Part shown: piece after piece, positions 41,074 through 64,000 of the stretch
Layout: each line of letters starts with the position of its first letter
Numbering within the stretch: position 1 is the first letter of the stretch
Assembly: GCA_021819825.1 (NCBI GenBank)
Contig: JAKAEZ010000001.1
Span: forward strand, 71,600-135,599
Origin: Planctomycetota bacterium
GTDB lineage: Bacteria > Planctomycetota > Phycisphaerae > WQYP01
Length of the DNA stretch: 64,000 nt
Direction: 5' to 3'
The notes under the pieces: model-generated
Databases searched by the model: none
Told to the model about the DNA's origin: nothing
Seen by the model: the letters and a program-made list of their open reading frames with translations, nothing else
Position numbers and translations under genes: made by a program

Positions 41074-41358
41074 TACTCCTTGTTCGACCAGATATTGCAG
41101 CGACAGTATACCTCAGTGGCAACTCACACGGAAGAAGCCAATTCGATGCCAATTCGATGGGCGTGGCGATAAATCCGTGCAGGTCTCTGGAGTGTGAGCT
41201 TCCAAGAGAAACCATCCTCTGAACGCCGGCATTGCTGCCGCCGATTTCGCCGCTCGCCCGGGAATCTTGCCATGCCCCATTCGACAAATCCCGTCCGCGC
41301 TGGCACGCTGCCGCCGGTTGCCGTATCTTAATTCGCCGTAGGAATACTTGGAGTGGTT

Positions 41359-51288: not shown

Positions 51289-54200
51289 TTATTGCCCAGG
51301 TTGATGACTTTGAATCCATGCAGGCCCCGGCAGCGCGTAAGGGCGGAATTTTTCCATCACGCCTTGCTCCTCACTGCATGACAGGCCGCGGTAGAAGCCC
51401 AGATTATTGGCGGCCGGCGAGTCAATTAAACTGCTGGAATCCGCTGCACTCATCTGAAAAAGCACCCGGTTGTCAAATTCTCTCTGGGCAGATCGTTCAA
51501 ATGTGCGTTCCAATGACGCCAAGGTATCCACCCAAGTCAAGATGTGAATACCAACTCCTGGGCCATCACGCAGAATTTCACTAAATTCCTTCGCCGGGTT
51601 GGGGGCCTTGGCCTCATCACCTGAAGACATCGAGAAGCTAAAGTCGTCCTCGTTTTTCCGCAACATTCGGTAACGCTGGAGAGCGAAAATAAAAAGAAAT
51701 GTCTCCGGCGCATTGGGCGACTCTTCGGCCAGGCGACGATGAACCTCCTGGTTAACTGAGTGAATCGTATCTCCGATGCCTCGCCATTCGACGATTTGCA
51801 CGTCCGGGCCTAATGCGGGCGTGAGACGTTCAAATGTACCGGCCAAGCGGGAATCCGCCGCCAACCCATCCATGATATAAAATTTTGCCCCCCCACGCGG
51901 ATACTGTGCCGCTAAGGAAATCAGCGACCAGACCATCAGTGATAGCGCTTGTTCCTCCTGCTGGCCGACCAGCAGAACATTGGATCCGCTTTGCCGCCGC
52001 AGGGTCAGATCGGTAGGCTCTTTAATGGCCACCGGCTCGCCAATCCACGCGCGGGCTGAGGTCGGAATAGTCGTGGGCCTGTCGCCGGCCAGGAGAGCAC
52101 TTAGTTGTTTATTCATCTGGGCATCCGCCGGAGCATTGCCCTCAAATATGACCGGTGGCTCAAAGTGGAATGAAGCATCCTTGGCACGACTGCTGATTTG
52201 ATCCAGATAAATTTCCCGCTTTTCATCCGGCAGCCACGCCACCTGGAACGGGCTGTTAGCCTCTACCAAACCACCGGCATCATTGTAAATTGCGGCACCC
52301 GGGCGGGAAAGCAATCGCGCCGCCGAGTTATTATCTCCCAAGATTATCTGCGAATCCGCCTCGCTTACTTGCAGCGCAATGCGCACGGCCATTTGGCCGA
52401 TGGTGCTGCGGGCCAATCCGGAAGTACCGCCGATAGTTTGCGACCCCAGCAGCAGGTGAATGCCAAAGGCTCGGCCTTGGCGTACCAGACGATCCATTAA
52501 CAATCCGGCTTGTTGGGCCAATTTGTCATCTTCGGAAAAAAATTCCTGAAATTCGTCAATCACCAGCAGAGTTCGCGGCATGGTTTGCGCACCCGCGCTG
52601 CGACGATATGACGGCAAGTCCTGGACTCCCGCCTTGCGGAATAATTCACCACGGCGTGCCAATTCTACATCCAGACGTTCCAAAACACTTAAGCCAAACT
52701 CCCTATCACTTTCTACCGCGATCGCCCGGGCATGGGGCAGGTGATGGGTGGCATAGGTTTTAAATTCCACGCCTTTTTTAAAGTCGATCAGATACAGCTC
52801 AATTTGATCCGGTGAATACCACATCGCCAGATTGGTCACAATCGCGTGCAGCAGCGTGGATTTGCCCGAACCGGTTTTCCCAGCCAGCAGCGCGTGTTGA
52901 GCCATCGCCCGGCCCAGACGCAACATCTGCAGCCGCGTAGCCCCCATACGACCGATTGGAACAGCCAGCGAGTCCGAACTGTCGAGCGACCAAAATTCTG
53001 CATCGCCCGGCGCGATGGTATCAAAGGAGACTTCAACATTCTGATTGGCTTTGGCGGCCTGGCCAATTTTATCCAAGAGCGGTGTAAACACTTCCTCGGT
53101 GGGCGGCTGATCCAGTGCAAGCGGGAACTGGCCGAACACATCATCCTTCCAACTAAATGATTCCGCCTTCTGCACAATATTGACGCAGTGCGCGGCGATA
53201 TCCTCCAGTTGCGTTGCCGAGCCGGCAGGCATTTGCATATCACCCGCCGCCAGCAGATATACGCCGCAACGCGCGCCCGTCGCGGCAATACTGGCCAGCC
53301 GCCGCAGGCAATCTCGCTCAAAACCGGACGGAAAATCAGCAATAACGACAAAGCGGTATGGCTCGGCCAATTCACCGGCCTGCGCGTTGTAATCATCAAT
53401 GGTGGCAAATTCATTGCGCAGATATTTTTGAATGACTGTTTCCATGTGTTCCGTAAGGTCTGAAAGCCGCTGCTCAATTTGTTCCGGGCGCGTCCAGATT
53501 CGCCCCCCCACCAGCGCCTCATCATGATCGGCAAGCCGCATAAACCCCGCAAAATTCTGCCCCAGTCCTACGGGATCAATGATGGTAAATCTGGCCCGGC
53601 CGGGCGGCAATTGCGTGAGAATACTGATCATCACCGATTGCAGCATCTGCAGGGCCGCCGGCCGCCCGGTACGGTCATAGCGCACCAGCATGGAGGCACC
53701 AAAGGGAAATTCCAGCGCTGCCGGCACCGCAAAGGCCGCCGGGAATTCCAACTTTACCGCATCACCTTTAGCGCCGGCGGCGACCACCCGCTTGAGATCT
53801 ACCGAAAACTCGCCCAAGCGGATAACTTTTGGAAAAATATTTGATGGCGTCCAGTTTTCCCATGACGGCGTGCCGTGGCGATCAACGTTTTCTTTTATCG
53901 ACATATTCCCATTGGTGTGCTGGTCGGAAGATGGCTCGGGGATATGCGCCAAACCATTTTTCAACCGGTTTTTCAGCGTCAGCATGGCCTGATCATATTG
54001 CGCCCGGTTATCCGCCAGACGTTCTTCGTATTGTCGCTGTGCAGCAAGAATATCCGCGTCGTGCTGCTTCCGTATGGCCTGGTTCTGGGATTCGCTTTCT
54101 TCTTGCGCAGCGCAAACCGCGGCGGCGCGTTGCGCATCACTTTCAGCTTTGCTGGTGTCATATTGCTGCTGGGACTCCTGCCGCCGTGCGGTGCGCTTGG

Positions 54201-55245
54201 CTTCAATGTTTTGTGCCGCTGCGGCGGCCTTCTGCTTTAATTCCTGCAACTCGCGCAATGCTTTGGCACGGGTATCGGCGAAGTGCGCCTCGTGCCGTTG
54301 GGCCACCATTTCAGCATGTTGTTTTGCGGCCTGCCGCGCTGACGCAATGGCGACATTCAGGGGTTGATTGATTGCCAGTAAGCCGGCCTTCGCCCATGAA
54401 CGGAGCACCAATCCAAGAATAATAGCGCCCGCGAAGGTCCCGCCCACCGCCATGGCAATGACATTAACTTGCACCGGGGTAGAACCCGACAGGCCATAAG
54501 CCACCGCCCCCGCCGCCCCGCATAGCAATATGAGGAATATCCACGGTGCAACGCCGTAAACCAGCCGCGGCAGCAGTAATCGACGAAGAGCCGCCAATTC
54601 TCTCTGGGCGGATTCCAAGTGTGCGGCCATGGCAGCTCTCTGGTCCTGGCCTTCCAGCGCGGCAATGCCTGGGGTTTCCGGTGCTCCCGGCGGCCGACGG
54701 AAACACCGCGCCATCAAAGCCGCCGCGGATTGCGCCACTTCCGCCAGAGCCTGTTCGTGCTCATGGAACACTTTGCTTAGTTCTTCATCTTCGGCACGAA
54801 TCTGATTGCGGGCCGTTTCCACTTCTCCTTCGGCCAGCCATTTGGCTTCTTCTATTTGATTGCGGACTTTCCGCTGCGCATCCGCGTTTTCCCATTTGAT
54901 GGCCGCTTGGGCCTGATTATATTCTTCCGTGCACTGTGCCAGACGGCCCTGATAATCGGCGGCGATTTTTTCCGCAGTGCGTTCACGTTGCGCCGTAAGC
55001 TTTTCAACTTCAAGAGAATATCGGCTCTCTATCTGCGCCAGCGTGTTGTCGCGATCTTTTTTCGCCTGTTCATTGGCGACCCGAAATTGCCGCTCAATCT
55101 GGGACTCATCGGTTGTGCATTGTGCGGCCAAACTTAGCAGGTCGCGCAGCACAGATTTTTGAGCATCGCGCCGGGGACACGCGGCACCATGCTTCTCGGT
55201 CAACGGCGAAACGCGCGGATCAGTCTTTGGGTGTAACTGGGTCAT
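51289..55245 (-). CDS. FtsK/SpoIIIE-family triple P-loop ATPase, T7SS EssC/EccC-like (atypical architecture)
   Basis: Length 1318 aa. The layout is a ~230-aa coiled-coil N-terminus, 2 TMs, a second coiled coil, then three FtsK-like domains. Only the middle domain has a canonical Walker A (LLAGKTGSGKST) and Walker B (LLVIDEFQEF). Confidence 0.85.
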   Translation of the reverse strand: MTQLHPKTDPRVSPLTEKHGAACPRRDAQKSVLRDLLSLAAQCTTDESQIERQFRVANEQAKKDRDNTLAQIESRYSLEVEKLTAQRERTAEKIAADYQGRLAQCTEEYNQAQAAIKWENADAQRKVRNQIEEAKWLAEGEVETARNQIRAEDEELSKVFHEHEQALAEVAQSAAALMARCFRRPPGAPETPGIAALEGQDQRAAMAAHLESAQRELAALRRLLLPRLVYGVAPWIFLILLCGAAGAVAYGLSGSTPVQVNVIAMAVGGTFAGAIILGLVLRSWAKAGLLAINQPLNVAIASARQAAKQHAEMVAQRHEAHFADTRAKALRELQELKQKAAAAAQNIEAKRTARRQESQQQYDTSKAESDAQRAAAVCAAQEESESQNQAIRKQHDADILAAQRQYEERLADNRAQYDQAMLTLKNRLKNGLAHIPEPSSDQHTNGNMSIKENVDRHGTPSWENWTPSNIFPKVIRLGEFSVDLKRVVAAGAKGDAVKLEFPAAFAVPAALEFPFGASMLVRYDRTGRPAALQMLQSVMISILTQLPPGRARFTIIDPVGLGQNFAGFMRLADHDEALVGGRIWTRPEQIEQRLSDLTEHMETVIQKYLRNEFATIDDYNAQAGELAEPYRFVVIADFPSGFERDCLRRLASIAATGARCGVYLLAAGDMQMPAGSATQLEDIAAHCVNIVQKAESFSWKDDVFGQFPLALDQPPTEEVFTPLLDKIGQAAKANQNVEVSFDTIAPGDAEFWSLDSSDSLAVPIGRMGATRLQMLRLGRAMAQHALLAGKTGSGKSTLLHAIVTNLAMWYSPDQIELYLIDFKKGVEFKTYATHHLPHARAIAVESDREFGLSVLERLDVELARRGELFRKAGVQDLPSYRRSAGAQTMPRTLLVIDEFQEFFSEDDKLAQQAGLLMDRLVRQGRAFGIHLLLGSQTIGGTSGLARSTIGQMAVRIALQVSEADSQIILGDNNSAARLLSRPGAAIYNDAGGLVEANSPFQVAWLPDEKREIYLDQISSRAKDASFHFEPPVIFEGNAPADAQMNKQLSALLAGDRPTTIPTSARAWIGEPVAIKEPTDLTLRRQSGSNVLLVGQQEEQALSLMVWSLISLAAQYPRGGAKFYIMDGLAADSRLAGTFERLTPALGPDVQIVEWRGIGDTIHSVNQEVHRRLAEESPNAPETFLFIFALQRYRMLRKNEDDFSFSMSSGDEAKAPNPAKEFSEILRDGPGVGIHILTWVDTLASLERTFERSAQREFDNRVLFQMSAADSSSLIDSPAANNLGFYRGLSCSEEQGVMEKFRPYALPGPAWIQSHQPGQ

Positions 55246-55269
55246 AGTTATGAATGCCTCGCCGACGGT

Positions 55270-55488
55270 TTACTGACAATCGCGCCGCACCTGCGTAAGC
55301 ACCATGGCGATATGTTCCATGGCGTTGGCGGCCGCGTGCAGGTCGGTAGCCAAGGGTTCAAGAAATTTTTTCTCAAAGCGGGCGCTGGCGGCATCATTCC
55401 AGCCAAACTTCACTTCCTCCCAGCTTAGCTGGAGGTGATTCAATGCCTTGGCCAATTGCCCGCGACCTTCATAAACACCCATAAACAA
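55270..55488 (-). CDS. Small helical WXG100-like protein (WxD variant)
   Basis: About 70 aa with central GWNDAASARFEKKF, matching the W-x-G…F…F pattern of the ESAT-6/EsxA hairpin. Immediately upstream of the FtsK-like gene. The start is TTG at 55488 or ATG at 55482. Confidence 0.5.
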   Translation of the reverse strand: MFMGVYEGRGQLAKALNHLQLSWEEVKFGWNDAASARFEKKFLEPLATDLHAAANAMEHIAMVLTQVRRDCQ

Positions 55489-55542
55489 GCCCGCCCTTTT
55501 TCTTGCACCATTTGTGAACCTCGCAGCGACAGGCTGGTACGT

Positions 55543-56574
55543 TTACTTTCGCTGCGTGCCGACATCTCGCCCCTGGGGGTCCTTAATCTCTGCACTGCCC
55601 TGCAAATCCAATATAACAGAAAAACCCACCGGGAGTTTCAGAATTTTTAGCCACTCCGGACTTTTTTGTGCAATATCAGCCACCGTAATCGACCGCCATG
55701 GGCCATGGGCCTTACCCAGTGGCATAAGGCACCAGCCTGTGTCTTCAGGTGATAACGGCTCTGTGCGACGTAGCGTCAGCAAGCACGGTTGGTTATCAGT
55801 TGACTCGGCGAAAGTTATCTTCGCTTCCGGGCGTAATGTCGGGTCCTCACCGGCGAGAGGTTCAATGGCACTAAGCTGCGAATCAGTTAACGTCGGAGCA
55901 GCAAAAGGCCACTGCTTTTGCGGTGCCGCAATGCGGCGTTCTTCGGAACTGGGAAGCAAGAGGTCGCTTTCAAGGCGTTGTGGGGTTGGCTCTTTGGACC
56001 CCGGCGCGCCACGCGACATAACCGCACCCTCCGCCGCCGGGGAGACAAGCGTAAACGGCCCGGCGTTTTCCGAACTTACACCGCCGGGGCTTGCAATGGA
56101 AGCGTATGCCTGCAATTCCGCGACAAGCCGTTCCAGATGCGTTACGCCCGCCGGCACCAGAGATTCCACGCTTGTCGCAAGGCGCTGTACCGAACCTTTA
56201 TATAATTCCACTTCTTTTTGTAAGGCCCGTGTCCAGCGCCGCACATTGGCCAATTTTTGCTCGGCCTCGGTCAATCGGACCATGGCACGTTGTAATTCTT
56301 TTTGCTCCTCAATGGCGGATAACGGTTTTCCGGAATGATCCCGGAAAAGTTTCTTCATACGGACCGCCTCCTTGGCCCGTTCAACGGCGGTTTGGCGTTT
56401 GCGTGTTTGATCTTTCCAGAAGTTTTCCTGCTCAATTTCCAGCCAGAGCATGGTGCGACGCAATTCGGAGTCCGCATCTTCCATGGCGGCGTTGGCTGCC
56501 GCCTGAAACTTCCAGAGCACCGCCTGGAAGCCGACCAGCAAATCCACAGATTCAACCCGAGCGCTCTCGGCCAT
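55543..56574 (-). CDS. Hypothetical protein: helical/coiled-coil N-domain plus Pro/Ser-rich low-complexity C-terminus (candidate secreted substrate)
   Basis: ATG start at 56574, 343 aa. The N-terminal ~160 aa are predicted helical (LWKF…, WLEIEQENFWKD). The C-terminal half is P/S/A-rich. Confidence 0.55.
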   Translation of the reverse strand: MAESARVESVDLLVGFQAVLWKFQAAANAAMEDADSELRRTMLWLEIEQENFWKDQTRKRQTAVERAKEAVRMKKLFRDHSGKPLSAIEEQKELQRAMVRLTEAEQKLANVRRWTRALQKEVELYKGSVQRLATSVESLVPAGVTHLERLVAELQAYASIASPGGVSSENAGPFTLVSPAAEGAVMSRGAPGSKEPTPQRLESDLLLPSSEERRIAAPQKQWPFAAPTLTDSQLSAIEPLAGEDPTLRPEAKITFAESTDNQPCLLTLRRTEPLSPEDTGWCLMPLGKAHGPWRSITVADIAQKSPEWLKILKLPVGFSVILDLQGSAEIKDPQGRDVGTQRK

Positions 56575-56583
56575 GATGCAGTC

Positions 56584-56883
56584 CTATCGCTCGTTAAGGT
56601 ATTTTTCTATATGCTGCGCTTTCTTCATCAAAACCTTGGCGTGCTCGGTCGATGATTCCATGAACTTCCCCAGATACTGCGCCGCCTGATCAAAAGTTTC
56701 GGCAAACTTTTGCTGCTCCTGATCGCGCCAGCTTGATTCCAGAGACCGCAGCCGGGAATTTAATCCCGACATAAGCCCTTCCAGATCATTATTAAACTGC
56801 ATCAGCCCCTGGGCAAACCGCCGCAACTCCGCCGGATCAACACTCGCTTTGGCCATACGATTCATCTCCGTGTATGCCGCCAA
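56584..56883 (-). CDS. WXG100-family (ESAT-6/EsxA-like) small protein, WxD variant
   Basis: Helical hairpin of 90-99 aa with central SSWRDQEQQKFAETF (WXG-like). The likely start is the ATG at 56856 (RBS GGAG with a 9-nt spacer); the track start at 56883 is TTG. Confidence 0.65.
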   Translation of the reverse strand: MAAYTEMNRMAKASVDPAELRRFAQGLMQFNNDLEGLMSGLNSRLRSLESSWRDQEQQKFAETFDQAAQYLGKFMESSTEHAKVLMKKAQHIEKYLNER

Positions 56884-57259
56884 TCAACTTAAACATAGCC
56901 TACCATTGAAACCAACAGACACCAAGACGTTTCTCCGCTGGTTGCGGGGATGGGCGTGGCAATAATTCCGGGCGGGCATCCGCGATGCGAGTTTCCAAGG
57001 CCAAGCATTCTCTTAGCGCCTGCTTTTATGCCGTCGATTTCGCCGCCTCCCTGGAAATACTGCCACGCCCAAGCGTATGCACCTACCCTCCTCCCGCCAC
57101 GCCTCAACCCGCAAACGCGCAAACCCACAAGCCGCAAATTAACCGATCAATACGCCATTTACCGCCAATCCCAAACCTCCCGCCCCCGTCGGTGACAAAT
57201 TCCAAATACCAAATGCTCTCCCCGGTTATTCGTTATTCGTTGAGAATATTGATTTGCGA

Positions 57260-57403
57260 TCAGTGTCCTTTGATCAGCGGAAAGGACTCCTGATTGCTCG
57301 TCCAACCCCCTGTCCCCTGTAACCCCCGCCGGAGGGCGGTTGTGCCGGAATTTATCCCGTGCGCGCCGGGATGGTGAAATTTGTTATCGTTCAGTGCAAC
57401 CAT
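57260..57403 (-). pseudogene. Truncated 5' stub of the MVALNE-leader / RHS-tail cassette family (47 aa)
   Basis: Encodes MVALNDNKFHHPGAHGINSGTTAL… and then terminates. It shares the conserved ~78-nt 5' element with the 59747 and 62639 copies. Confidence 0.5.
57326..57403 (-). repeat. Conserved ~78-nt element (leader codons plus 5' flank) of the MVALNE cassette family, copy 1
   Basis: About 90% nucleotide identity to 59673-59747, with the differences including a 3-nt in-frame indel. Confidence 0.7.
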
Positions 57404-57603
57404 AACCCAGTCCATAACACGAAACCGACGATTTCGACACTTTACCGCCGCCAACTCCTCTCTCGGCGAAGCCGTCGCATTCATTAAAACCGTCGTTATT
57501 TCCATTAACTAATCACGTCCGCGCATATGCGATCCCTCCGTTCAGAAAACCGCTTAATGGATCCGCAGCGGAGCGGCCTGTTGGGTAGCCTTTCGCATCC
57601 ACA

Positions 57604-58716
57604 TCATTTCCTTTCAGATGGATGCGTTTTTACCGGTAGCCATTCGACCGCAACGACATGCTTTCGGCCTCGACCTGAAGCAAAGCCAAAGATCATCCCA
57701 CGCGACGTAATAGCGTAGGCTTGCGAGAAGCTATACCGGAGCGGCAGTAGTTTCTGCAGGTCAGTTGCGCTTTCTGGGGTCCCATTCCATACCATCGCGT
57801 GTGCCATGCCGTGAATACGGCTGGTTCCGTACCCCACCTCCTGCCTGCCGTTTGTGCTGTTTGCACAGGACACGGCGCACCCGCTGGGGTTTAAGTCGAC
57901 GAACCTTTTCCCTGACGTGAACCACAGGATGGCGTGGCCGCCTTTGACACCCTTGAGCCGTCCATAGCCCACTATTCTACCGCCACCAGTGCCCACCGCT
58001 TTTGACCAAGCGTATTCTCGAGGATTGAGATCAACCGCGCTCGCTGCGCTTCCCCGCCAAAGCAGTGCCTGATATTTTCCATTTAAGCGTTTTCCGAACC
58101 CAACCTGGTGAACACCGTCCGTTGCCACCGCCTCTGATGAAACGAATCCTTTGGGATTCAGATTAATAAAGCTTTGCGGGCTACCTCTCCAAATCGCGGC
58201 ATAATCCAAATCTCCCGGGGCCTCCACGTAGCCTACTTCTTGGCTAGCTCGCACCGAAATGGCCTGAGAGAATTTAAATCCACGTGGGTTGAGCAGGATC
58301 ACACCTTGGGCCACTCCCGACCATAGAAGGGCCCCACCACGATCGCCGGGCATTTGGCCTGCGCCTACCTGCCATCTCCCGTTTGTGCCTTCCGCGTCCG
58401 ACCAGAGAAACCCTTTCGGGTTTAAATCAACGATGCCCTCCCCTCCAACCCCGCCCAATAGCGCGTGGCCGAAGTGCCGGTGTCCCAACCTCAATCCCAT
58501 ACCAACCCATCGGCCGCCACGGGCCCCCTGAGCAACCGCCTGCCAATAGCCGGGAGTCTTCAAAATGACCGCACGGTATTTCGTGGCCGGCGGAACGCCG
58601 TGGCTCGTTCTCCCCAACGGCCCGATGTGTCCGCGCGCTGGGTTAGCCGCCAGAGGGATTTGGCAATGCACCGACAGGAGGATGGCCATTGCGACTATAC
58701 ACAAGCGCTGGATCAT
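57604..58716 (-). CDS. Secreted HAF-family extracellular repeat protein (~8 x ~40-aa repeats)
   Basis: Signal peptide MIQRLCIVAMAILLSVHC. Repeats carry the HA(F/I)LW…DLNP…S.A…GYG pattern, for example HAILWFTSGKRFVDLNP, HAMVWNGTPESATDL and ALLWRGSAASAVDLNP. Confidence 0.7.
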   Translation of the reverse strand: MIQRLCIVAMAILLSVHCQIPLAANPARGHIGPLGRTSHGVPPATKYRAVILKTPGYWQAVAQGARGGRWVGMGLRLGHRHFGHALLGGVGGEGIVDLNPKGFLWSDAEGTNGRWQVGAGQMPGDRGGALLWSGVAQGVILLNPRGFKFSQAISVRASQEVGYVEAPGDLDYAAIWRGSPQSFINLNPKGFVSSEAVATDGVHQVGFGKRLNGKYQALLWRGSAASAVDLNPREYAWSKAVGTGGGRIVGYGRLKGVKGGHAILWFTSGKRFVDLNPSGCAVSCANSTNGRQEVGYGTSRIHGMAHAMVWNGTPESATDLQKLLPLRYSFSQAYAITSRGMIFGFASGRGRKHVVAVEWLPVKTHPSERK

Positions 58717-58841
58717 ACCAACAAATCCTCACCATGATTTCGTCGCGTCAGGGCACCACAGGACTGCCGCGACATATCAAATATTGCAGTACCGCAGGTT
58801 GGGATATTCTTGGGGAGCGCAATGTTGCGGCGTTGGCGGTC

Positions 58842-59747
58842 TCAAGTAGGCGGAGGCCACATGTTGAACGATGGCGACGGAGTGGGGGAGGGCGGAGGCA
58901 TCAGTGATCTCGCCCAATTGACCAACGAGTCCGCTTCCGCCATGAGATCGCGGTAGCTCGGTTCGCAACCATCTTCCAACAGTTGTTGCATTTCCTGGCT
59001 TGCGTCGCCTACCGCGTAAGCCATCCCAGCCCCCTCAAAGGGAACGCTGGTGCCACCGCTCTCAAGTGCGTCATTAATATCCCACAACAGGGAACCCAGC
59101 GTCAGGGCAAGCTTGGCGGCGTCCGCGGCACATTTTTTATCACATTGCATCTCCAGGGAATGCTCTTGTGATTTTATCTGCTGCCACCTTGCCCAAGCCC
59201 ATAAATTGCCGCCCGAAAGATTGGGCGGCAGCAAGCCCCAAGCGTCCCTGCCCACCGGGTCTATTTCCGCCTGGCCGCCCACATACTCATACAAATTCAC
59301 GCCACCGGCGTAGTCGATGGGATCGCGTTGCAGCACCCGAGTCGCCACTCCTGTGGCCCGTCGGGATTTCGGCTCCTGCCTCAACACCGTGCCAGGAATC
59401 GAGTTGTGCCTGCGGTTGCGAGCGTAATAGAGTTCCGTTTCCGGATCGTTTAGGCCCGTCCCGATATCCGTTGAAACACGAATGTTATCGGGATACCCGC
59501 AGCAAATGATTTCATCGGCACCGACGCTTCGCTCAATGACCAATGAGTAATGATCAATGAACAAATCATTGGAAGTTCGGCGTTTCTGGCCAGTGGTCCG
59601 TGATCGTTGATCAATGAAGTTCACCCCAGATTCCCCGTTCCGCTGTAACCCGCAACCCGTAACCTGTAACCTCCGCCAGAGGGCGGTTGTGCCGGAATTT
59701 ATCCCGTGCGTGCCGTTATGGTGAAATTTTTCGTTCAGTGCAACCAT
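58842..59747 (-). CDS. MVALNE-leader protein with a degenerate RHS repeat-associated core and a variable C-terminal (toxin-like) domain
   Basis: MVALNEKFHHNGTHGINSGTTAL leader. Degenerate core (…DPETELYYARNRRHNSIPG…LQRDPIDYAGGVNLYEYVGG). A unique C-terminal region of ~150 aa with a PPSPTPSP tail. A stop codon lies 2 codons upstream of the ATG. Confidence 0.6.
   Translation of the reverse strand: MVALNEKFHHNGTHGINSGTTALWRRLQVTGCGLQRNGESGVNFIDQRSRTTGQKRRTSNDLFIDHYSLVIERSVGADEIICCGYPDNIRVSTDIGTGLNDPETELYYARNRRHNSIPGTVLRQEPKSRRATGVATRVLQRDPIDYAGGVNLYEYVGGQAEIDPVGRDAWGLLPPNLSGGNLWAWARWQQIKSQEHSLEMQCDKKCAADAAKLALTLGSLLWDINDALESGGTSVPFEGAGMAYAVGDASQEMQQLLEDGCEPSYRDLMAEADSLVNWARSLMPPPSPTPSPSFNMWPPPT
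59673..59747 (-). repeat. Conserved element of the MVALNE cassette family, copy 2
   Basis: See copy 1. The 5' UTR motif ccgcaaaag…agccaat is additionally shared with copy 3. Confidence 0.7.
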
Positions 59748-59870
59748 GAATTACCCGCAAAAGAAAGCAAGCCAATACCGGAATTATATCCCCTTGCACC
59801 CGGACTGCAGATAAATCCATGCAATCCATGCAACCCCACCGGTATAGTACATTTTGATAGGTGGCCGTCC

Positions 59871-60404
59871 CTAGCATTCCCGTTTCGCCCCACGCGGTAT
59901 TTCGGCACGGGGCCGAAGGCCAATCCTTGCGGGTACCCTATCGGTTTTCCGGCGTTTTGGAACCACGGGTTGTGTTGCTGTCGAGGGTATCCCCCTCTGG
60001 CCAATTCCGTTGTTCACAGCCACCTTCACGAACGCCCAAAGGGCAGTGAGGAAAAAGGCGGCAACTACAATAACGAGAGCGGTCCCGATACAGCTTATAA
60101 CGGTCCCCGCAATGGCGAGTCCGCGCGGCTCTCTTTTCAGTCCAAGCGAGCTGAAAATCAGCGCGATTGGCGATGCGATCCCGAAGAAGAATACCAAGCT
60201 GACGACGGAGAGGATGAATCCAACCAATCCCATGGTGTTGCCTCCGGCGGAAGCATTGGGTCTCGGCGGTCGCCCCGCTGCGATTACACGTTCCGTTTGT
60301 GCAACCAGCGCGCTGTGGCAACCGTCACATACTCGATCATTTCCGTCCCACCTCACGGTTCCAGATTCGGCGAGTTCGCGCCCGCATTTTATGCATTTAC
60401 CCAT
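59871..60404 (-). CDS. Zinc-ribbon plus multi-TM small membrane protein (DUF4190-like)
   Basis: N-terminal CxxC…CxxC (MGKCIKCGREL…CDGCH), followed by hydrophobic segments. Good RBS AAAGGAAC. Confidence 0.5.
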   Translation of the reverse strand: MGKCIKCGRELAESGTVRWDGNDRVCDGCHSALVAQTERVIAAGRPPRPNASAGGNTMGLVGFILSVVSLVFFFGIASPIALIFSSLGLKREPRGLAIAGTVISCIGTALVIVVAAFFLTALWAFVKVAVNNGIGQRGIPSTATQPVVPKRRKTDRVPARIGLRPRAEIPRGAKREC

Positions 60405-60549: not shown

Positions 60550-61293
60550 TCAGCGAACCGAGCCCATGAAGGAGAGCAGGTTTCGAATGGCAATATTCGC
60601 CCAGGTGACCACATGTGGCCATGCCAATATGCACATGGTAGTCAGCCACCCCCAAACCTTCACCGTAGCGGATTGCCATCGCCAAGTTCCCCACGGCCCA
60701 GGCCCGAGCGTCCTGCGCCCCGCAGCACCACTCGCCCTCGGCTCCGCCATCGCACCATTGGCCCCCGCGGGTGCACTGGTGCAACAGAGAGCAAGGCACT
60801 CCGCCTCATCCTGGCCGCTCTTGAATGCCCTTGCAGGCACAATTATCACAAGGTCATGGCCGCGCACGGCAGATAGTAGAAATAGCCCGTGTTCGTTGGC
60901 CTCGAAACATGCTACACCTTCCCATGGTATTGCGAGCGAACCCCCATTGGAACTCGATGAAATCCCCCGCGTACTTATGTTGACCTCGTAGTTGCCGAGC
61001 CAAGCGGCAATTCCGTACAATCCCTCTGACCTTACCGCAGCAAGGGATGCGTACGAGTGCGTCACAAACCTCCTGAACTTCATACGCGAAATCACTAAAA
61101 TTAAAACATAATAGCTGCCAAGAAGGAAAATCGCCGGCCCCCTGGCCAGCAGTGCCAAGGGTCCGGCAAAAAGCCAAGGGAGCAGCAAAATCACCCGGGC
61201 AGCTCGCGAGAACGCCGACCGACTTTTTTTGAGCAACCAAGCATTGGCATAGTATGCGTCCTCCGGACGAGCCGAATATTGAAGATTGAACAT
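60550..61293 (-). CDS. YcxB-like (two TMs plus bacterial PH domain) putative immunity protein
   Basis: N-terminus MFNLQYSARPEDAYYANAWLL…, two TMs and a PH-like region. Lies immediately downstream of RHS-tail copy 3. The start is the ATG at 61293 (RBS GGAG), or the GTG at 61359, which overlaps the toxin stop (TAGTG). Confidence 0.5.
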   Translation of the reverse strand: MFNLQYSARPEDAYYANAWLLKKSRSAFSRAARVILLLPWLFAGPLALLARGPAIFLLGSYYVLILVISRMKFRRFVTHSYASLAAVRSEGLYGIAAWLGNYEVNISTRGISSSSNGGSLAIPWEGVACFEANEHGLFLLSAVRGHDLVIIVPARAFKSGQDEAECLALCCTSAPAGANGAMAEPRASGAAGRRTLGPGPWGTWRWQSATVKVWGWLTTMCILAWPHVVTWANIAIRNLLSFMGSVR

Positions 61294-61358
61294 GGCGCAA
61301 ACTCCAGAACACCGCGCTGATATCGCGCGGGGGGCACGGGGCTCCACCGACGCAAACA

Positions 61359-62639
61359 CTACAATAGCGCGGGGGCAGTTCCACCAAGCATTGAAATCGC
61401 TTGCCGGATCAGCGCCAAGGCAAGCGTCGCGTCCTGCAGAGCGCCCGCAAGCGCAAGTTCAGGAAGTTCGGCCCAAGCTACGGCCGCAACGGCCCCCGCA
61501 AGTGCCCACTTGTTTAGCGTGGCTTGCCCCGAAAACATCGCGTCGAAATCAAAACGGTAACAAACGCATTTCTGGTCCGACCAACTGTAGTAACTCCCTA
61601 CTATCGTGCCACCTTCATAGATCGATACCAATGGCCCGCCGATCCACACGCCGGCCATTAAATTAACTGAAAAAACACCAAAATCTGTGTTGGTGGTGGC
61701 GATGATTCCGCCGGGGATCAATGCCGCTGTGTGGAATATCCTTGGGGGAACGATCCATTCGTTCCGGCATTCGCTTTCCGAACGAGAGGTACGCACCTTG
61801 GAAACGCCAGCCGAACCTTCGACACCAATCCCGGCTAATTCGTGGCCAAAGAGCGATATCTCGCCTCCAAAGCCGAAGAGCACGTCAATGTAGTGCCTTC
61901 CAATTCGCCAGTGGACTGAGGGCTGCCCCCAAGGGTTGAAGCCACCGTGCAGCCCTGCTGCGTCTCCGGTGATCGCCGCCCGTCCCCCCACATACTCATA
62001 CAAATTCACGCCGCCGGCGTAGCCGATTGGATCGCGTTGCAGCCAGCGGCCAAGGGTCGGGTTGTACGTTCTCGCGCGGACATAGTAGAGTTCTGTTTCG
62101 GGATCAAACCTGTACCCGCAATAAATAATTTCATTGGCGCCGTAGGAAGATTGCACATCGTCGTCCGTGAACCAGATGCTATCTGCGCCAGGACCGGTGA
62201 AGATCAGCGTATTGCCGTAGGCATCAGTATCTTAAGCCTCGACAATCGCGCCAGATGAATTGGTCAATGCCACAGCGCGATACAAAAAATCTTGCAGCAG
62301 GTAGTACGCGCCAGCAGGCAGGGATTGCGGGCCGAGCGGAACCAGCGTGGTGAGCTGAATTAGCTCATCAACGTATGTTCCCCAGATGTACTGCCGGATC
62401 GGTGCGTCGCTGGAGTTCCTTTCTTCCATGCACTGCCAGCCAGCCCATATATAGTCTGTCGTGCCATTGGGGATGTTTCCAGTCAAGCCGCCATTGAAAT
62501 AATTTTCTGCCACAGAGGCCACCGAGGACTCAGAGGCCCCACGATTCGCGGCACCGTCAGATGGCGCGAACTCCCCTTTCCGGCCCACGCTTCGTGTCGT
62601 CGTGTCGTTGTTGTGAAAATGTTCGTTTAGTGCAACCAT
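61359..62639 (-). pseudogene. MVALNE-leader RHS-tail polymorphic toxin cassette with canonical RHS core, interrupted by one in-frame TAA
   Basis: ORFs 62232-62714 and 61359-62156 are in the same frame. They are separated only by TAA at 62232-62234, inside the RHS motif …GAIVEA*DTDAYGNTLIFTG…. The canonical core is YCGYRFDPETELYYVRARTYNPTLGRWLQRDPIGYAGGVNLYEYVGG, followed by a ~210-aa unique C-terminus. Confidence 0.65.
62612..62639 (-). repeat. Conserved element of the MVALNE cassette family, copy 3 (partial; leader codons only)
   Basis: ATGGTTGCACT(A/G)AACGA… is shared with copies 1 and 2. Confidence 0.55.
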
Positions 62640-62845
62640 AAGCTGTCCGCAAAAGCCAATTGTTTCAACCCTCAAATCCTGTCCCCTCCGATGCAAATCG
62701 CAAAGCGAGATCATGAAAGCTGCGTCCGCAACGCGACACGCGTTTACCGCCTCACTGCCCGCCGTCTTTATGACCGGCCTTGGAGTCGACGGATGCCACC
62801 GCCTCGCTTCCCCGCCCTTTCGCGTTCACGGCCAAAGCAACCATA

Positions 62846-63632: not shown

Positions 63633-64000
63633 TTAGGTGCCCTGGCATTGACACGGCGTCTTGGCGTTAACATCATATCCCTGCACCCAGACTGGAACGG
63701 TATCCGCGCCCAGCCCCAGGTTCCAGAATGAGGGACCGGAAAATGGCGACTCGCGGTACCAGGCAAGGTTCCCGTCGAGGTAGAGTTCTGCGTCGGGAAA
63801 TTCAGTAACGACACCAAACACGCTGATAGACACGCCAGTCTTGGAAGCCGTGAAGTATACCACCAGCGAGTACATAATCGGAGGTGCCACATGCAGGTGG
63901 AAGACCGTAAATGGGTATCCGGCCCAGCCCCAGACCGAAACTCGTGTCGTACACTTTCCGGGACTGGTTATGTCTGTGTGGCTCACAACCGACGCCTTCG
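63633..64000 (-). CDS. Partial CDS (3' end in window): C-terminus of a larger protein with a LamG/ConA-like jellyroll signature (…AELYLDGNLAWYRE…)
   Basis: The frame is open to the window edge upstream of the track start. The track 'M' at 63986 is a GTG. Confidence 0.45.
   Translation of the reverse strand, partial: KASVVSHTDITSPGKCTTRVSVWGWAGYPFTVFHLHVAPPIMYSLVVYFTASKTGVSISVFGVVTEFPDAELYLDGNLAWYRESPFSGPSFWNLGLGADTVPVWVQGYDVNAKTPCQCQGT

What the first reader, a model, noticed from the sequence alone, without database searches (positions are those of the whole stretch)
57326..59747. Nucleotide-level conserved ~78-nt element spanning the start codon and 5' flank of the cassette genes, with codon-preserving indels
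57326-57403 and 59673-59747 are ~90% identical (…GAGGGCGGTTGTGCCGGAATTTATCCCGTGCG…TTCAGTGCAACCAT). The differences include a clean 3-nt indel in the coding part. Copy 3 (62612-62639) shares only the first ~9 codons, plus a separate 5' UTR motif (ccgcaaaag…agccaat) that it shares with copy 2. Conservation extends into non-coding sequence. This is consistent with a homologous-recombination handle for cassette swapping, a shared promoter or translation-initiation region, or both.
Basis: seen in the sequence. Interest (0 to 1): 0.6.

Follow-up and report, generated by a model that had tools for sequence, protein, structure and literature searches.

The report
Shared promoter-leader heading Rhs toxin cassettes
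Each spare toxin gene in this planctomycete's Rhs toxin array begins with the same short promoter, start codon and first ten codons, and related strains have recombined at these repeated heads, so it is an unusual variant of a known cassette system, not a new kind of element.

Summary
The repeat is real. Window 57309-57403 and 59656-59747 share 84 identical bases of 92-95, with one 3-nt indel. A third copy (62612-62639) shares the first nine codons.

The genes run on the minus strand, so the ~78-nt block lies inside the ORFs (ATG plus about 26-31 codons), not in the 5' flank. The flank keeps only short motifs.

The element belongs to a family. I found 12 further distinct DNA copies in other Planctomycetota assemblies and about 30 metagenome proteins starting MVAL[NDGS]E[QKH][FL]HH. 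The leader sits in front of:
- Rhs core fragments cut at different points, followed by a toxin tip
- immunity-like genes
- a RelE-like gene
- short junk ORFs

Upstream lies a sigma-70-like promoter (TTGGCA-N17-TAGAAT, -10 box 41-47 nt before the ATG). Codons 2-4 differ only at synonymous sites. Mixed heptamer tandem repeats cluster around the leaders.

Strains 98-99% identical in the neighbouring WXG100/EssC-like locus break synteny at the leader ATG, in a heptamer array, or nearby. They also carry different toxin tips behind the same leader.

Best reading: a portable expression head for orphan Rhs-CT/immunity cassettes that also serves as recombination homology. This is a new variant of a known kind and moderately interesting. 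Expression is inferred, not shown.

The parts
57309..57403 (-). Leader copy 1: the ATG (57403-57401) plus about 31 codons. This is the conserved block shared with copy 2.
   Evidence: The same block is present in strains L006, L007 and L010.
57260..57403 (-). Remnant 47-codon ORF headed by leader 1 (MVALNDNKFHHPGAHG...). It runs into repeat DNA and a stop, and no toxin follows.
   Evidence: Frame-breaking 1-nt and 13-nt indels among strains.
57404..57450 (-). 5' flank of leader 1, with a degenerate -10-like hexamer TAAAGT at 57444-57439.
57095..57308 (-). Mixed short tandem repeats downstream of leader 1, in units of 7-8 nt (GGTTACA/GGGGACA, CGAATAA, TTTGGTA, GGGTTTGC). This is the site of the synteny break in L008/L009 and of 7-nt and 8-nt copy-number differences.
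59656..59747 (-). Leader copy 2: the ATG (59747-59745) plus about 30 codons. Conserved block.
59748..59795 (-). 5' UTR and promoter region of copy 2. It holds TATAAT at 59788-59783 and the ATTGGC...CTTTTGCGG motif.
59520..59711 (-). Linker made of heptamer repeats, (GGTTACR)x4 and (CATTGRT)x4, read in frame between the leader and the Rhs core tip.
   Evidence: Codon analysis against L006:6910 gives dS 0.07 and dN 0.10.
58842..59747 (-). Copy 2 ORF of 301 aa: leader, linker, a short degenerate Rhs core tip (..LQRDPIDYAGGVNLYEYVGG..DPVG) and a C-terminal domain with no family match.
   Evidence: (TIGR03696 E=0.0017, below the cutoff).
62612..62639 (-). Leader copy 3: the ATG (62639-62637) plus 9 conserved codons (MVALNEHFH).
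62640..62690 (-). 5' UTR of copy 3, with the ATTGGCTTTTGCGG motif. No clear -10 box.
61359..62639 (-). Copy 3 ORF: leader, about 45 aa of low-complexity sequence, the Rhs C-terminal core from NGGLTGNIPNGTTDY onward, and a toxin tip. It is interrupted by an in-frame TAA at 62234-62232 where relatives have Tyr (VEAYDTDAYGN).
   Evidence: (TIGR03696 1.2e-17).
59267..59334 (-). Rhs core-tip repeat (DPIxYAGGVNLYEYVGG), 91% identical to 61976-62043. This is the classical homology upstream of the toxin tip.
   Evidence: family D3.
61976..62043 (-). Second copy of the Rhs core-tip repeat, in copy 3.
   Evidence: family D3.
59871..60404 (-). Candidate immunity or cargo gene: zinc-ribbon plus membrane protein, with a weak DUF4190 match below the Pfam cutoff. 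A homologue lies in the L012 array.
60550..61359 (-). Candidate immunity gene directly after the copy 3 toxin (YcxB-like domain, marginal match).
57604..58716 (-). Secreted repeat protein of 370 aa with no family match. It is strain-specific cargo between copy 2 and leader 1. L006 has an epimerase at this position and L007 has an 869-aa protein.

Best explanation
The repeated element is the head of a cassette. It consists of a sigma-70-type promoter, a roughly 35-40-nt untranslated leader, a start codon and a conserved N-terminal peptide (MVALNEQFHH-like).

In one Planctomycetota lineage this head is placed in front of orphan Rhs C-terminal toxin/immunity cassettes. After the toxin is lost, it remains in front of the surviving immunity or cargo gene.

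**In this window**
- Copy 3 heads a leader-core-toxin gene that now carries a nonsense codon.
- Copy 2 heads an intact ORF of leader, heptamer linker, core tip and toxin.
- Copy 1 is a headless remnant next to the WXG100/EssC-like locus.

**Consequence of repetition**
Because the same head recurs along the array, together with clusters of short heptamer repeats, it also serves as homology for recombination. That recombination deletes, joins and reshuffles cassettes between strains.

**Shown here**
- The repeat family exists.
- It sits at the 5' end of diverse ORFs.
- A promoter-like motif is conserved upstream.
- Changes in codons 2-4 are all synonymous.
- Strains break synteny at the ATG and in a heptamer array.

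**Inferred**
- That the promoter fires.
- That the ATG is used.
- What the peptide does.
For: **Family membership**
- Three copies in the window.
- Five in MAGs JA4.bin8 and ZJ5.bin40.
- One after a long Rhs gene and its immunity gene in L004.
- More in L006, L007, L010, L012 and L015.
- About 30 metagenome proteins begin with MVAL...

**What the leader is fused to or precedes**
- Rhs core starting at GGGSVAAP.. (P0104, P0109).
- Rhs core starting at NGGLTGNIPNGTTDY (most copies).
- Rhs core starting at GANDLIYCGY (window copy 2, L003, L006).
- A signal-peptide protein (L012:12045).
- A RelE-like ORF (L001:3882).
- Junk ORFs of 38-85 codons.

**Promoter**
- TTGGCA or TTGCAA, then N16-18, then TAGAAT, TATGAT or TATAAT. 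The -10 box lies at -41 to -47 in 12 of 15 copies, and L015 has the same arrangement.

**Translation**
- The start codon is always ATG, or TTG once.
- 11 non-consensus bases in codons 2-4 are all synonymous.
- Indels in intact cassettes are 3 nt and 21 nt. In remnants they are 1, 7, 8 and 13 nt.

**Recombination**
- In L007 the junction falls exactly at the ATG. Its upstream flank resembles that of L006:6910 and its downstream sequence is 98.7% identical to L006:9455 onward.
- L008 and L009 lack L006 6529-9615, with one end in the CGAATAA array.
- Window copy 2 and L006:6910 share 88% identity up to DPxG, then differ in the toxin tip.

**Precedent**
- A conserved internal promoter drives Rhs-CT/immunity expression in Salmonella (PMC7043789).
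Against: - There are no expression data. The window's own copies have weak promoters: the generic sigma-70 scan finds none at the leaders, copy 3 has no -10 box, and copy 2 has TATAAT without a good -35.
- A protein with only a leader and a C-terminal core fragment lacks the Rhs shell, so its use as a delivered toxin is unclear.
- Many leader ORFs end in stops, so part of the family is decayed.
- The synonymous-only pattern rests on few independent events, roughly six (my estimate, p about 0.003).
- The function of the conserved peptide is unknown.
- I could not find the N-terminus of any full-length Rhs gene in this lineage. The leader could therefore simply be the N-terminus of the parent gene, retained after internal deletions.
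- Only one junction falls exactly on the leader.
Confidence: 0.6

Rival explanations
1. The leader is conserved purely as a peptide. It would be an N-terminal recognition or export tag, for example for the adjacent WXG100/EssC-like secretion ATPase, that marks short Rhs-CT proteins as substrates.
For: - Only synonymous changes occur in codons 2-4, and the start codon is kept.
- The N-terminus is widely conserved in proteins from metagenomes.
- A T7SS-like module (WXG100, EccC/EssC-like FtsK ATPase) lies directly downstream in the window.
Against: - The same leader heads junk ORFs that stop after 38-85 codons. It also precedes a signal-peptide protein and a RelE-like gene.
- The loci around L012 and L015 have no T7SS genes within 10 kb.
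- Strain L005 has the T7SS-like module without any leader.
- From my own knowledge, known T7SS signals are C-terminal or are helical LXG/WXG domains, not 10-residue N-terminal tags.
- The linker behind the leader evolves neutrally at the protein level (omega about 1.4).
Confidence: 0.15
2. The heptamer repeats between the leader ATG and the cassette act as a slipped-strand frame switch. Gain or loss of one 7-nt unit would turn translation of an orphan toxin/immunity cassette on or off (phase variation).
For: - 12 of 15 strict period-7 arrays lie within 600 nt of a leader, although only 7.9% of 223 kb of sequence is that close.
- In copy 2, L003:2352, L003:4343, L006:6910 and P0007 the arrays lie in frame between the ATG and the core.
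- In L002 the same block is out of frame.
- A 7-nt unit is lost in L008/L009 relative to 98-99% identical strains.
Against: - The arrays are short (2-4 units) and the units are imperfect, which should slip rarely.
- The copy-number change seen lies in the remnant behind leader 1, not in an intact cassette.
- Window copy 2 and L006:6910 have the same repeat counts.
- Arrays also lie upstream of leaders, where frame is irrelevant.
Confidence: 0.1
3. The leader is a site for a dedicated recombinase or the end of a mobile element (integron-attC-like or MITE-like). The ATG and the ORF would be incidental.
For: - The leader marks the 5' boundary of cassettes with unrelated upstream flanks.
- One strain junction falls exactly at it.
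Against: - The larger ORFs of the window include no integrase, transposase or reverse transcriptase, and the called genes of L012 and L015 show none within 10 kb.
- There is no conserved secondary structure and no Rfam match.
- By eye, the cassettes are not flanked by inverted repeats.
- There are no copies on viral contigs or plasmids.
- Codon-position-specific substitution and in-frame indels point to translation.
Confidence: 0.07
4. The leader is only the retained N-terminus and promoter of an ancestral full-length Rhs gene. Orphans would be internal-deletion derivatives, and the similarity would reflect shared descent and gene conversion with no present function.
For: - The leader is joined to the core at several different truncation points.
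- Many copies are decayed.
- Copies 1 and 2 share a 31-nt block that L006:6910 lacks in part, which suggests homogenisation within the genome.
Against: - The leader stays more conserved than the neighbouring coding sequence between MAGs whose cassettes are only about 74-77% identical.
- The promoter motif and start codon are kept in lineages that diverged long ago.
- No full-length gene with this N-terminus was found, though the search was limited.
Confidence: 0.08

Closest known systems
Orphan Rhs-CT/immunity modules downstream of rhs genes in Enterobacteria (Poole 2011 PMC3150448; Koskiniemi 2014 PMC3967940; titles and abstracts seen, details from my own knowledge)
   Same: - Arrays of core-fragment, variable toxin tip and immunity gene.
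- The tip changes right after the DPxG motif.
- Repeated core homology (here 59267-59334 and 61976-62043).
- Strain-to-strain differences in cassette content.
   Different: - Classical orphans start inside core sequence and lack their own initiation signals. Here each one is capped by a non-core module with a promoter, UTR, ATG and conserved decapeptide.
- The same cap also precedes non-Rhs genes.
- Heptamer repeat clusters flank the caps.
Conserved internal P2 promoter that expresses Rhs-CT/immunity pairs as TA-like modules in Salmonella (Starsta 2020, PMC7043789)
   Same: [quoted passage not shown] It gives expression independent of the full-length delivery protein.
   Different: - P2 lies inside the conserved core coding sequence and uses weak internal starts (CTG or ATG). 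Here the promoter and start lie outside core homology and come with their own conserved peptide.
- Activity is shown for P2 but not here.
- The two sequences share no similarity that would suggest common descent.
Intergenic assemblages of mixed heptamer direct repeats (TAACTGA and others) in Beggiatoaceae, Microcystis and some Bacteroidetes (MacGregor 2015, PMC4679880)
   Same: - Short runs (2-6 units) of different 7-nt units are mixed in intergenic or 5' regions.
- That paper proposes roles in translational regulation or gene rearrangement.
- Contigs often break at such repeats.
   Different: - The unit sequences differ (GGTTACR, CATTGAT, TGATCAC, GGAGTTA, CGAATAA, TTTGGNA).
- Here they are tied to one repeated leader in toxin islands rather than spread over the genome.
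- Here some are translated in frame as a linker.
Integron gene-cassette arrays (my own knowledge)
   Same: A row of small cassettes, each bounded by a recurring short element, whose content varies between strains.
   Different: - No integrase is present.
- The element has no attC-like hairpin.
- It lies at the 5' end and carries a promoter and start codon, whereas integron cassettes are mostly promoterless.
- Rearrangements here look like homologous recombination.
Recombination between tandem paralogues in T7SS toxin/immunity islands of Firmicutes (PMC9484751, abstract seen)
   Same: Repeated homologous segments in a toxin/immunity island next to a WXG100/EssC-type locus drive deletion and diversification.
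   Different: - There the repeats are the immunity genes themselves. Here the repeat is a short non-core leader plus simple repeats.
- The link between these cassettes and the T7SS-like genes is not consistent across strains.

Membership tests
Rhs orphan toxin/immunity cassette | A C-terminal Rhs core fragment ending in the DPxG(L) motif, directly followed by a variable C-terminal domain | tested here: met
   - Copy 3 matches TIGR03696 Rhs_assc_core at E=1.2e-17, above the cutoff.
- Copy 2 has only a degenerate tip (E=0.0017, below the cutoff).
- Copy 2 aligns with L006:6910 up to DPxG and diverges after it.
Rhs orphan toxin/immunity cassette | A cognate immunity gene immediately downstream of the toxin tip | tested here: inconclusive
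   Small ORFs follow the toxins (60550-61359 after copy 3; a 95-aa membrane ORF after the L006 toxin). They have only marginal or no family matches.
Rhs orphan toxin/immunity cassette | Located downstream of a full-length rhs gene that supplies the shell and delivery part | tested here: inconclusive
   - L004 shows a long Rhs ORF (at least 638 aa, open at the contig end), then immunity, then a leader cassette.
- In the window another core-plus-toxin gene lies upstream of copy 3, but its 5' end is beyond the window.
- L012 and L015 have leader cassettes with no rhs gene within 10 kb.
Rhs orphan toxin/immunity cassette | The orphan lacks its own translation-initiation region and is silent until recombined into the main gene | tested here: not met
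   Every orphan here begins with a conserved ATG or TTG, a conserved N-terminal peptide and a promoter-like motif. This is the main departure from the classical description.
Internally promoted Rhs-CT/immunity TA-like module (Salmonella P2 type) | A conserved promoter sequence upstream of many different Rhs toxin tips | tested here: met
   The TTGGCA-N17-TAGAAT-like motif lies at a fixed distance from the start in 12 of 15 copies, which head different toxins. This is sequence evidence only.
Internally promoted Rhs-CT/immunity TA-like module (Salmonella P2 type) | The promoter and start lie inside the conserved rhs core coding sequence | tested here: not met
   The leader and promoter have no similarity to core sequence. 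Core homology begins 14-85 codons after the ATG, at varying points.
Internally promoted Rhs-CT/immunity TA-like module (Salmonella P2 type) | Demonstrated transcription and translation giving an intracellular toxin neutralised by the immunity protein | not testable with these tools
   This needs TSS mapping, reporter fusions and toxicity assays.
Integron attC-bounded gene cassette | An imperfect inverted repeat that folds into an attC hairpin at the cassette boundary | tested here: not met
   RNAalifold on 14 copies finds only a 3-pair helix at -1.4 kcal/mol. There is no Rfam match.
Integron attC-bounded gene cassette | An integron integrase adjacent to the array | tested here: not met
   Pfam scans of the larger window ORFs find no integrase or recombinase, and none is among the called genes around L012 or L015. 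The side of the array beyond base 64000 was not seen.
Structured non-coding RNA or riboswitch leader | A conserved secondary structure with covariation, or a match to a described family | tested here: not met

The most novel reading that the evidence does not exclude
The leader plus its heptamer clusters is a dedicated junction module. On this reading it repeatedly captures 5'-truncated toxin, immunity and other genes and supplies them with a promoter and start codon. The 7-nt repeats between the ATG and the captured gene would then set the reading frame by slippage. The array would be a bank of orphan toxins that switch on and off independently, rather than silent spares.
Probability: 0.1. 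Interest if true: 0.7.

Novelty: new variant of a known kind. Interest (0 to 1): 0.45.

Why it matters
Orphan Rhs and CDI cassettes are usually described as silent spares that need recombination into the main gene. The main exception is the Salmonella internal promoter.

Here a whole lineage of an understudied phylum gives every orphan its own conserved promoter, start codon and N-terminal peptide. After toxin loss, that head is kept in front of the immunity gene.

If the promoters are active, three things would follow:
- Internal (TA-like) or independent expression of Rhs tips would be supported as a general feature.
- A simple sequence tag would be available for finding toxin/immunity islands in Planctomycetota metagenomes.
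- There would be a natural case in which short repeated heads and heptamer repeats visibly shape island rearrangement between near-identical strains.

Tried and rejected
- **Structured RNA:** no Rfam match at gathering threshold or at E<=5, no tRNA or tmRNA, and no conserved fold in 14 aligned copies.
- **Terminator or generic promoter scan of the window region:** nothing specific at the leaders.
- **Mobile-element origin:** no copies on IMG/VR viral contigs or PLSDB plasmids. No integrase, transposase or RT among the larger window ORFs.
- **Leader-only protein search:** A padded 44-residue profile found only five short ORFs.
- **Search for the N-terminus of a full-length Rhs gene in this lineage:**
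  - All 92 hits to the L004 repeat region were 471 aa or shorter.
  - Three fetched contexts (L018, L019, L020) held fragments without the leader.
  - The shared frameshift after RRIRKTV in P0039 and P0052 is probably a long-read assembly error. That is my inference from the contig naming and from the fragmented ORFs in L019.
- **Exact-match look-ups:** the copy 2 ORF and P0001 were not on record.
- **Origin of the 31-nt block:** the idea that the block shared by copies 1 and 2 derives from the nearby hairpin repeat (56949-57070) was rejected, because only 8-nt matches were found.
- **'HAF repeat' label:** my first impression that the 370-aa protein is a HAF repeat protein was not supported by Pfam or NCBIfam, so it is dropped.
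Full report
**Observation**

All relevant genes read on the minus strand. Three ORFs start at 57403, 59747 and 62639 with ATGGTTGCACT(G/A)AACGA.

Copies 1 and 2 are 89% identical over 74 ungapped bases (57309-57382 against 59656-59729). With one 3-nt indel (GATAAC versus GAA) the match continues to the ATG, giving 84 identical positions of 92/95. A 31-mer is identical in both copies, and none is expected by chance in shuffles. Copy 3 shares only the first nine codons. Copies 2 and 3 also share the upstream motif ATTGGC...CTTTTGCGG.

The block is, however, the start codon plus the first 26-31 codons, not a 5' flank. Between copies 1 and 2 the similarity ends at the ATG.

**What the ORFs are**

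- Copy 3 (62639 to 61359) is leader, then about 45 low-complexity residues, then the Rhs C-terminal core from NGGLTGNIPNGTTDY, then a toxin tip. It matches TIGR03696 at 1.2e-17. An in-frame TAA replaces the Tyr of the conserved VEAYDTDAYGN (relatives).
- Copy 2 (59747 to 58842) is leader, then a linker encoded by heptamer repeats, then a short degenerate core tip, then an unassigned C-terminal domain.
- Copy 1 stops after 47 codons in repeat DNA.
- Directly downstream lie two WXG100-like genes, a 343-aa gene and an EccC/EssC-like FtsK ATPase. This is the arrangement that Zhang et al. 2012 describe in planctomycetes as a probable mobile T7SS version (PMC3482391).
- The rest of the window is housekeeping: hydrogenase maturation, PFOR, AddAB, transhydrogenase. 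It holds no recombinase.

**A family, not a local duplication**

- A pattern scan of one genome per species found three loci in two Planctomycetota MAGs, holding five leader copies.
- The JGI metagenome scan found one locus, L004, with the order long Rhs ORF, toxin, immunity, leader, core fragment.
- Protein searches returned about 30 short proteins that begin MVAL[NDGS]E[QKH][FL][HC][HR].
- The leader is joined to the Rhs core at different points: GGGSVAAP.. (P0104, P0109), NGGLTGNIPNGTTDY (most copies), or GANDLIYCGY behind a heptamer linker (window copy 2, L003:2352, L006:6910).
- It also precedes a signal-peptide protein (L012:12045), a membrane protein (L012:15018) and a RelE-like ORF (L001:3882). 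In other cases it simply runs into stops after 38-85 codons.
- Leader cassettes occur with no rhs gene or T7SS gene within 10 kb (L012, L015).
- None was found on viral contigs or plasmids.

**Anatomy of the head**

In 12 of 15 copies a TAnnnT hexamer (TAGAAT five times, TATGAT three times, TATAAT, TAGGAT, TAAAGT twice) lies 41-47 nt before the ATG. It is usually preceded at a spacing of 16-18 nt by TTGGCA or TTGCAA. The L015 copy has TTTGCA-N17-TAGAAT and a TTG start.

The window's own copies are the weakest examples. Copy 2 has TATAAT only, copy 1 has TAAAGT, and copy 3 has none. This is why the generic scan reports nothing there.

Downstream of the ATG the first 11 codons average 1.5 non-consensus bases per site, against 6.2 in the 30 nt upstream. 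In codons 2-4 all 11 non-consensus bases are synonymous (GTT>GTC, GCA>GCG, CTG>TTG/CTT/CTA). I count about six independent events, which gives roughly p=0.003 under random substitution.

Indels in intact cassettes are 3 and 21 nt, while those in remnants are 1, 7, 8 and 13 nt. There is no conserved RNA fold and no Rfam match.

Together these results favour a transcribed and translated head over a structured RNA or a pure DNA site.

**Heptamer repeats**

The leaders are embedded in runs of 2-4 units of various 7-nt repeats: GGTTACR, CATTGAT, TGATCAC, GGAGTTA, CGAATAA, TTTGGNA. By a strict criterion, 12 of 15 period-7 arrays in 223 kb of non-redundant loci lie within 600 nt of a leader, although only 7.9% of the sequence is that close.

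Some TTTGGCA units supply the -35 box (L007). Others are translated as the linker of copy-2-type ORFs.

Between window copy 2 and L006:6910 the values are as follows.

| Segment | Codons | dS | dN | omega |
|---|---|---|---|---|
| Linker | 59 | 0.07 | 0.10 | about 1.4 |
| Core | 96 | 0.40 | 0.18 | 0.45 |

The linker is thus not constrained as protein, yet it is much less diverged than its neighbour. This fits either recent exchange of the leader-linker segment or constraint at the nucleotide level.

Mixed heptamer assemblages of unknown function are on record for other phyla (PMC4679880).

**Strain comparison**

An exact look-up of the WXG100 protein gave six assemblies that are 92-99% identical to window 46.6-57.4 kb. 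Their synteny with the window or with each other ends within about 530 nt around leader 1.

| Locus | Where synteny ends or changes |
|---|---|
| L006, L010 | At 57436, with weaker similarity to about 57520 |
| L007 | Exactly at the ATG; upstream flank about 80% similar to that of L006:6910, downstream 98.7% identical to L006:9455 onward |
| L008, L009 | Lack L006 6529-9615 (leader, toxin, immunity, epimerase, leader); right end in the CGAATAA array at window 57241 |
| L005 | Has no leader at all |

The gene upstream of leader 1 differs by strain. It is a secreted repeat protein in the window, an epimerase in L006 and L010, an 869-aa protein in L007, a DNA_binding_1 (PF01035) gene in L008 and L009, and a TrmE-like GTPase gene in L005.

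Window copy 2 and L006:6910 share leader, linker and core tip (88%). They then carry unrelated toxin tips and different upstream flanks. Small unit-length indels (7 and 8 nt) separate strains within the repeat arrays.

One falls precisely on the leader and one on a heptamer array.

**Interpretation**

The best-supported reading (confidence about 0.6) is a portable expression head for orphan Rhs-CT/immunity cassettes. It has a promoter, a short UTR, a start codon and a conserved decapeptide. After toxin loss it persists in front of immunity or cargo genes. Because it is repeated, it doubles as homology for recombination within the island.

The closest functional precedent is the conserved internal P2 promoter. 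That promoter expresses Rhs-CT/immunity pairs in Salmonella and is found upstream of more than 50 toxins (PMC7043789). Here the head lies outside core sequence and brings its own peptide.

Classical orphan modules (PMC3150448 and PMC3967940, plus my own knowledge) share the array logic but lack such initiation signals. That feature was tested here and is not met.

Four rivals remain:
- An N-terminal export tag (0.15). This is weakened by junk ORFs, non-toxin fusions and the inconsistent T7SS linkage.
- A heptamer frame switch (0.10).
- A recombinase site or mobile-element end (0.07).
- A functionless relic of a parent gene's N-terminus (0.08).

**Limits**

- There are no expression data.
- The peptide's role is unknown.
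- The N-terminus of a full-length Rhs gene of this lineage was not recovered.
- Several loci are MAG or metagenome contigs, and the strains are not independent samples.

**Verdict**

The element is a new variant of a known kind of system, and I score its interest at about 0.45.

Noticed in passing
window 56949-57070 and 41156-41277: A repeat of about 120 nt (74% identical) with long terminal inverted repeats (GGGCGTGGCA...TGCCACGCCC). The copy 65 nt upstream of the WXG100 gene folds into a long hairpin (-59.7 kcal/mol, z -3.2) and is conserved in all strains that have this region. The second copy lies in a divergent intergenic region next to an 11-nt tandem repeat (41137-41159). It could be a MITE-like element or a structured RNA. 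There is no Rfam match.
   Followed up: partly
window 51289-56883 (minus strand): A compact T7SS-like module: WXG100 (56584-56883), a 343-aa protein with a weak Imm33-like match, a 72-aa WXG-like protein, and a 1318-aa EccC/EssC-like ATPase. In the ATPase only the region around residues 750-990 matches FtsK/EccC models. This fits the 'mobile T7SS' of planctomycetes noted by Zhang et al. 2012 (PMC3482391). Its left flank is the break point of synteny among strains.
   Followed up: partly
window 62232-62234: An in-frame TAA in copy 3 replaces the Tyr of the conserved VEAYDTDAYGN motif. This is either a nonsense mutation (pseudogene) or a sequencing error. The independent Logan contig L011 does not reach this position.
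   Followed up: partly
window 58842-59266 versus L006 7371-7830: Behind the same leader, linker and core tip (88% identical), the window strain and strain L006 carry unrelated C-terminal toxin domains and different downstream small ORFs. The flanking T7SS-like locus is 99% identical between them. This is a clean example of toxin-tip replacement.
   Followed up: partly
L006 6500-6900; L007 8160-8350: Long mixed arrays of short tandem repeats (GGTTACA/GGGGACA, TCACTGA, GTATTGG, CAACGAA, TTTGGNA) fill the spacer in front of leaders. A segment of about 100 nt (CAACGAAyAACGA...TTTGGnATTTGG...GACGGGGGCGGG) recurs both before and after leaders.
   Followed up: partly
L012 10430-13821: Two paralogous secreted proteins of about 400 aa with no family match (398 and 402 aa) alternate with leader-headed ORFs. 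They sit in an island that starts right after a PEPCK gene and has no rhs gene within 10 kb. They may be immunity or cargo proteins.
   Followed up: no
P0039 and P0052; L019: Two Rhs fragments from different contigs shift frame right after RRIRKTV, which is the point where orphan homology usually begins. L019 looks like a long-read assembly with many split ORFs, so this is probably an assembly error. The coincidence of position was not resolved.
   Followed up: partly
one search hit list: All 92 database proteins matching the Rhs repeat region of L004 are 471 aa or shorter, even on contigs of 0.2-2 Mb. Either full-length Rhs genes of this lineage are mostly fragmented in assemblies or pseudogenised, or the search does not return long proteins.
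   Followed up: no
L010 about 455-480 (aligned to window about 57330-57345): A 13-nt tandem duplication (GGCACAACCGC..) lies inside the leader-1 remnant of one strain, and the window strain has a 1-nt indel there. Both break the reading frame, consistent with copy 1 being non-coding now.
   Followed up: yes
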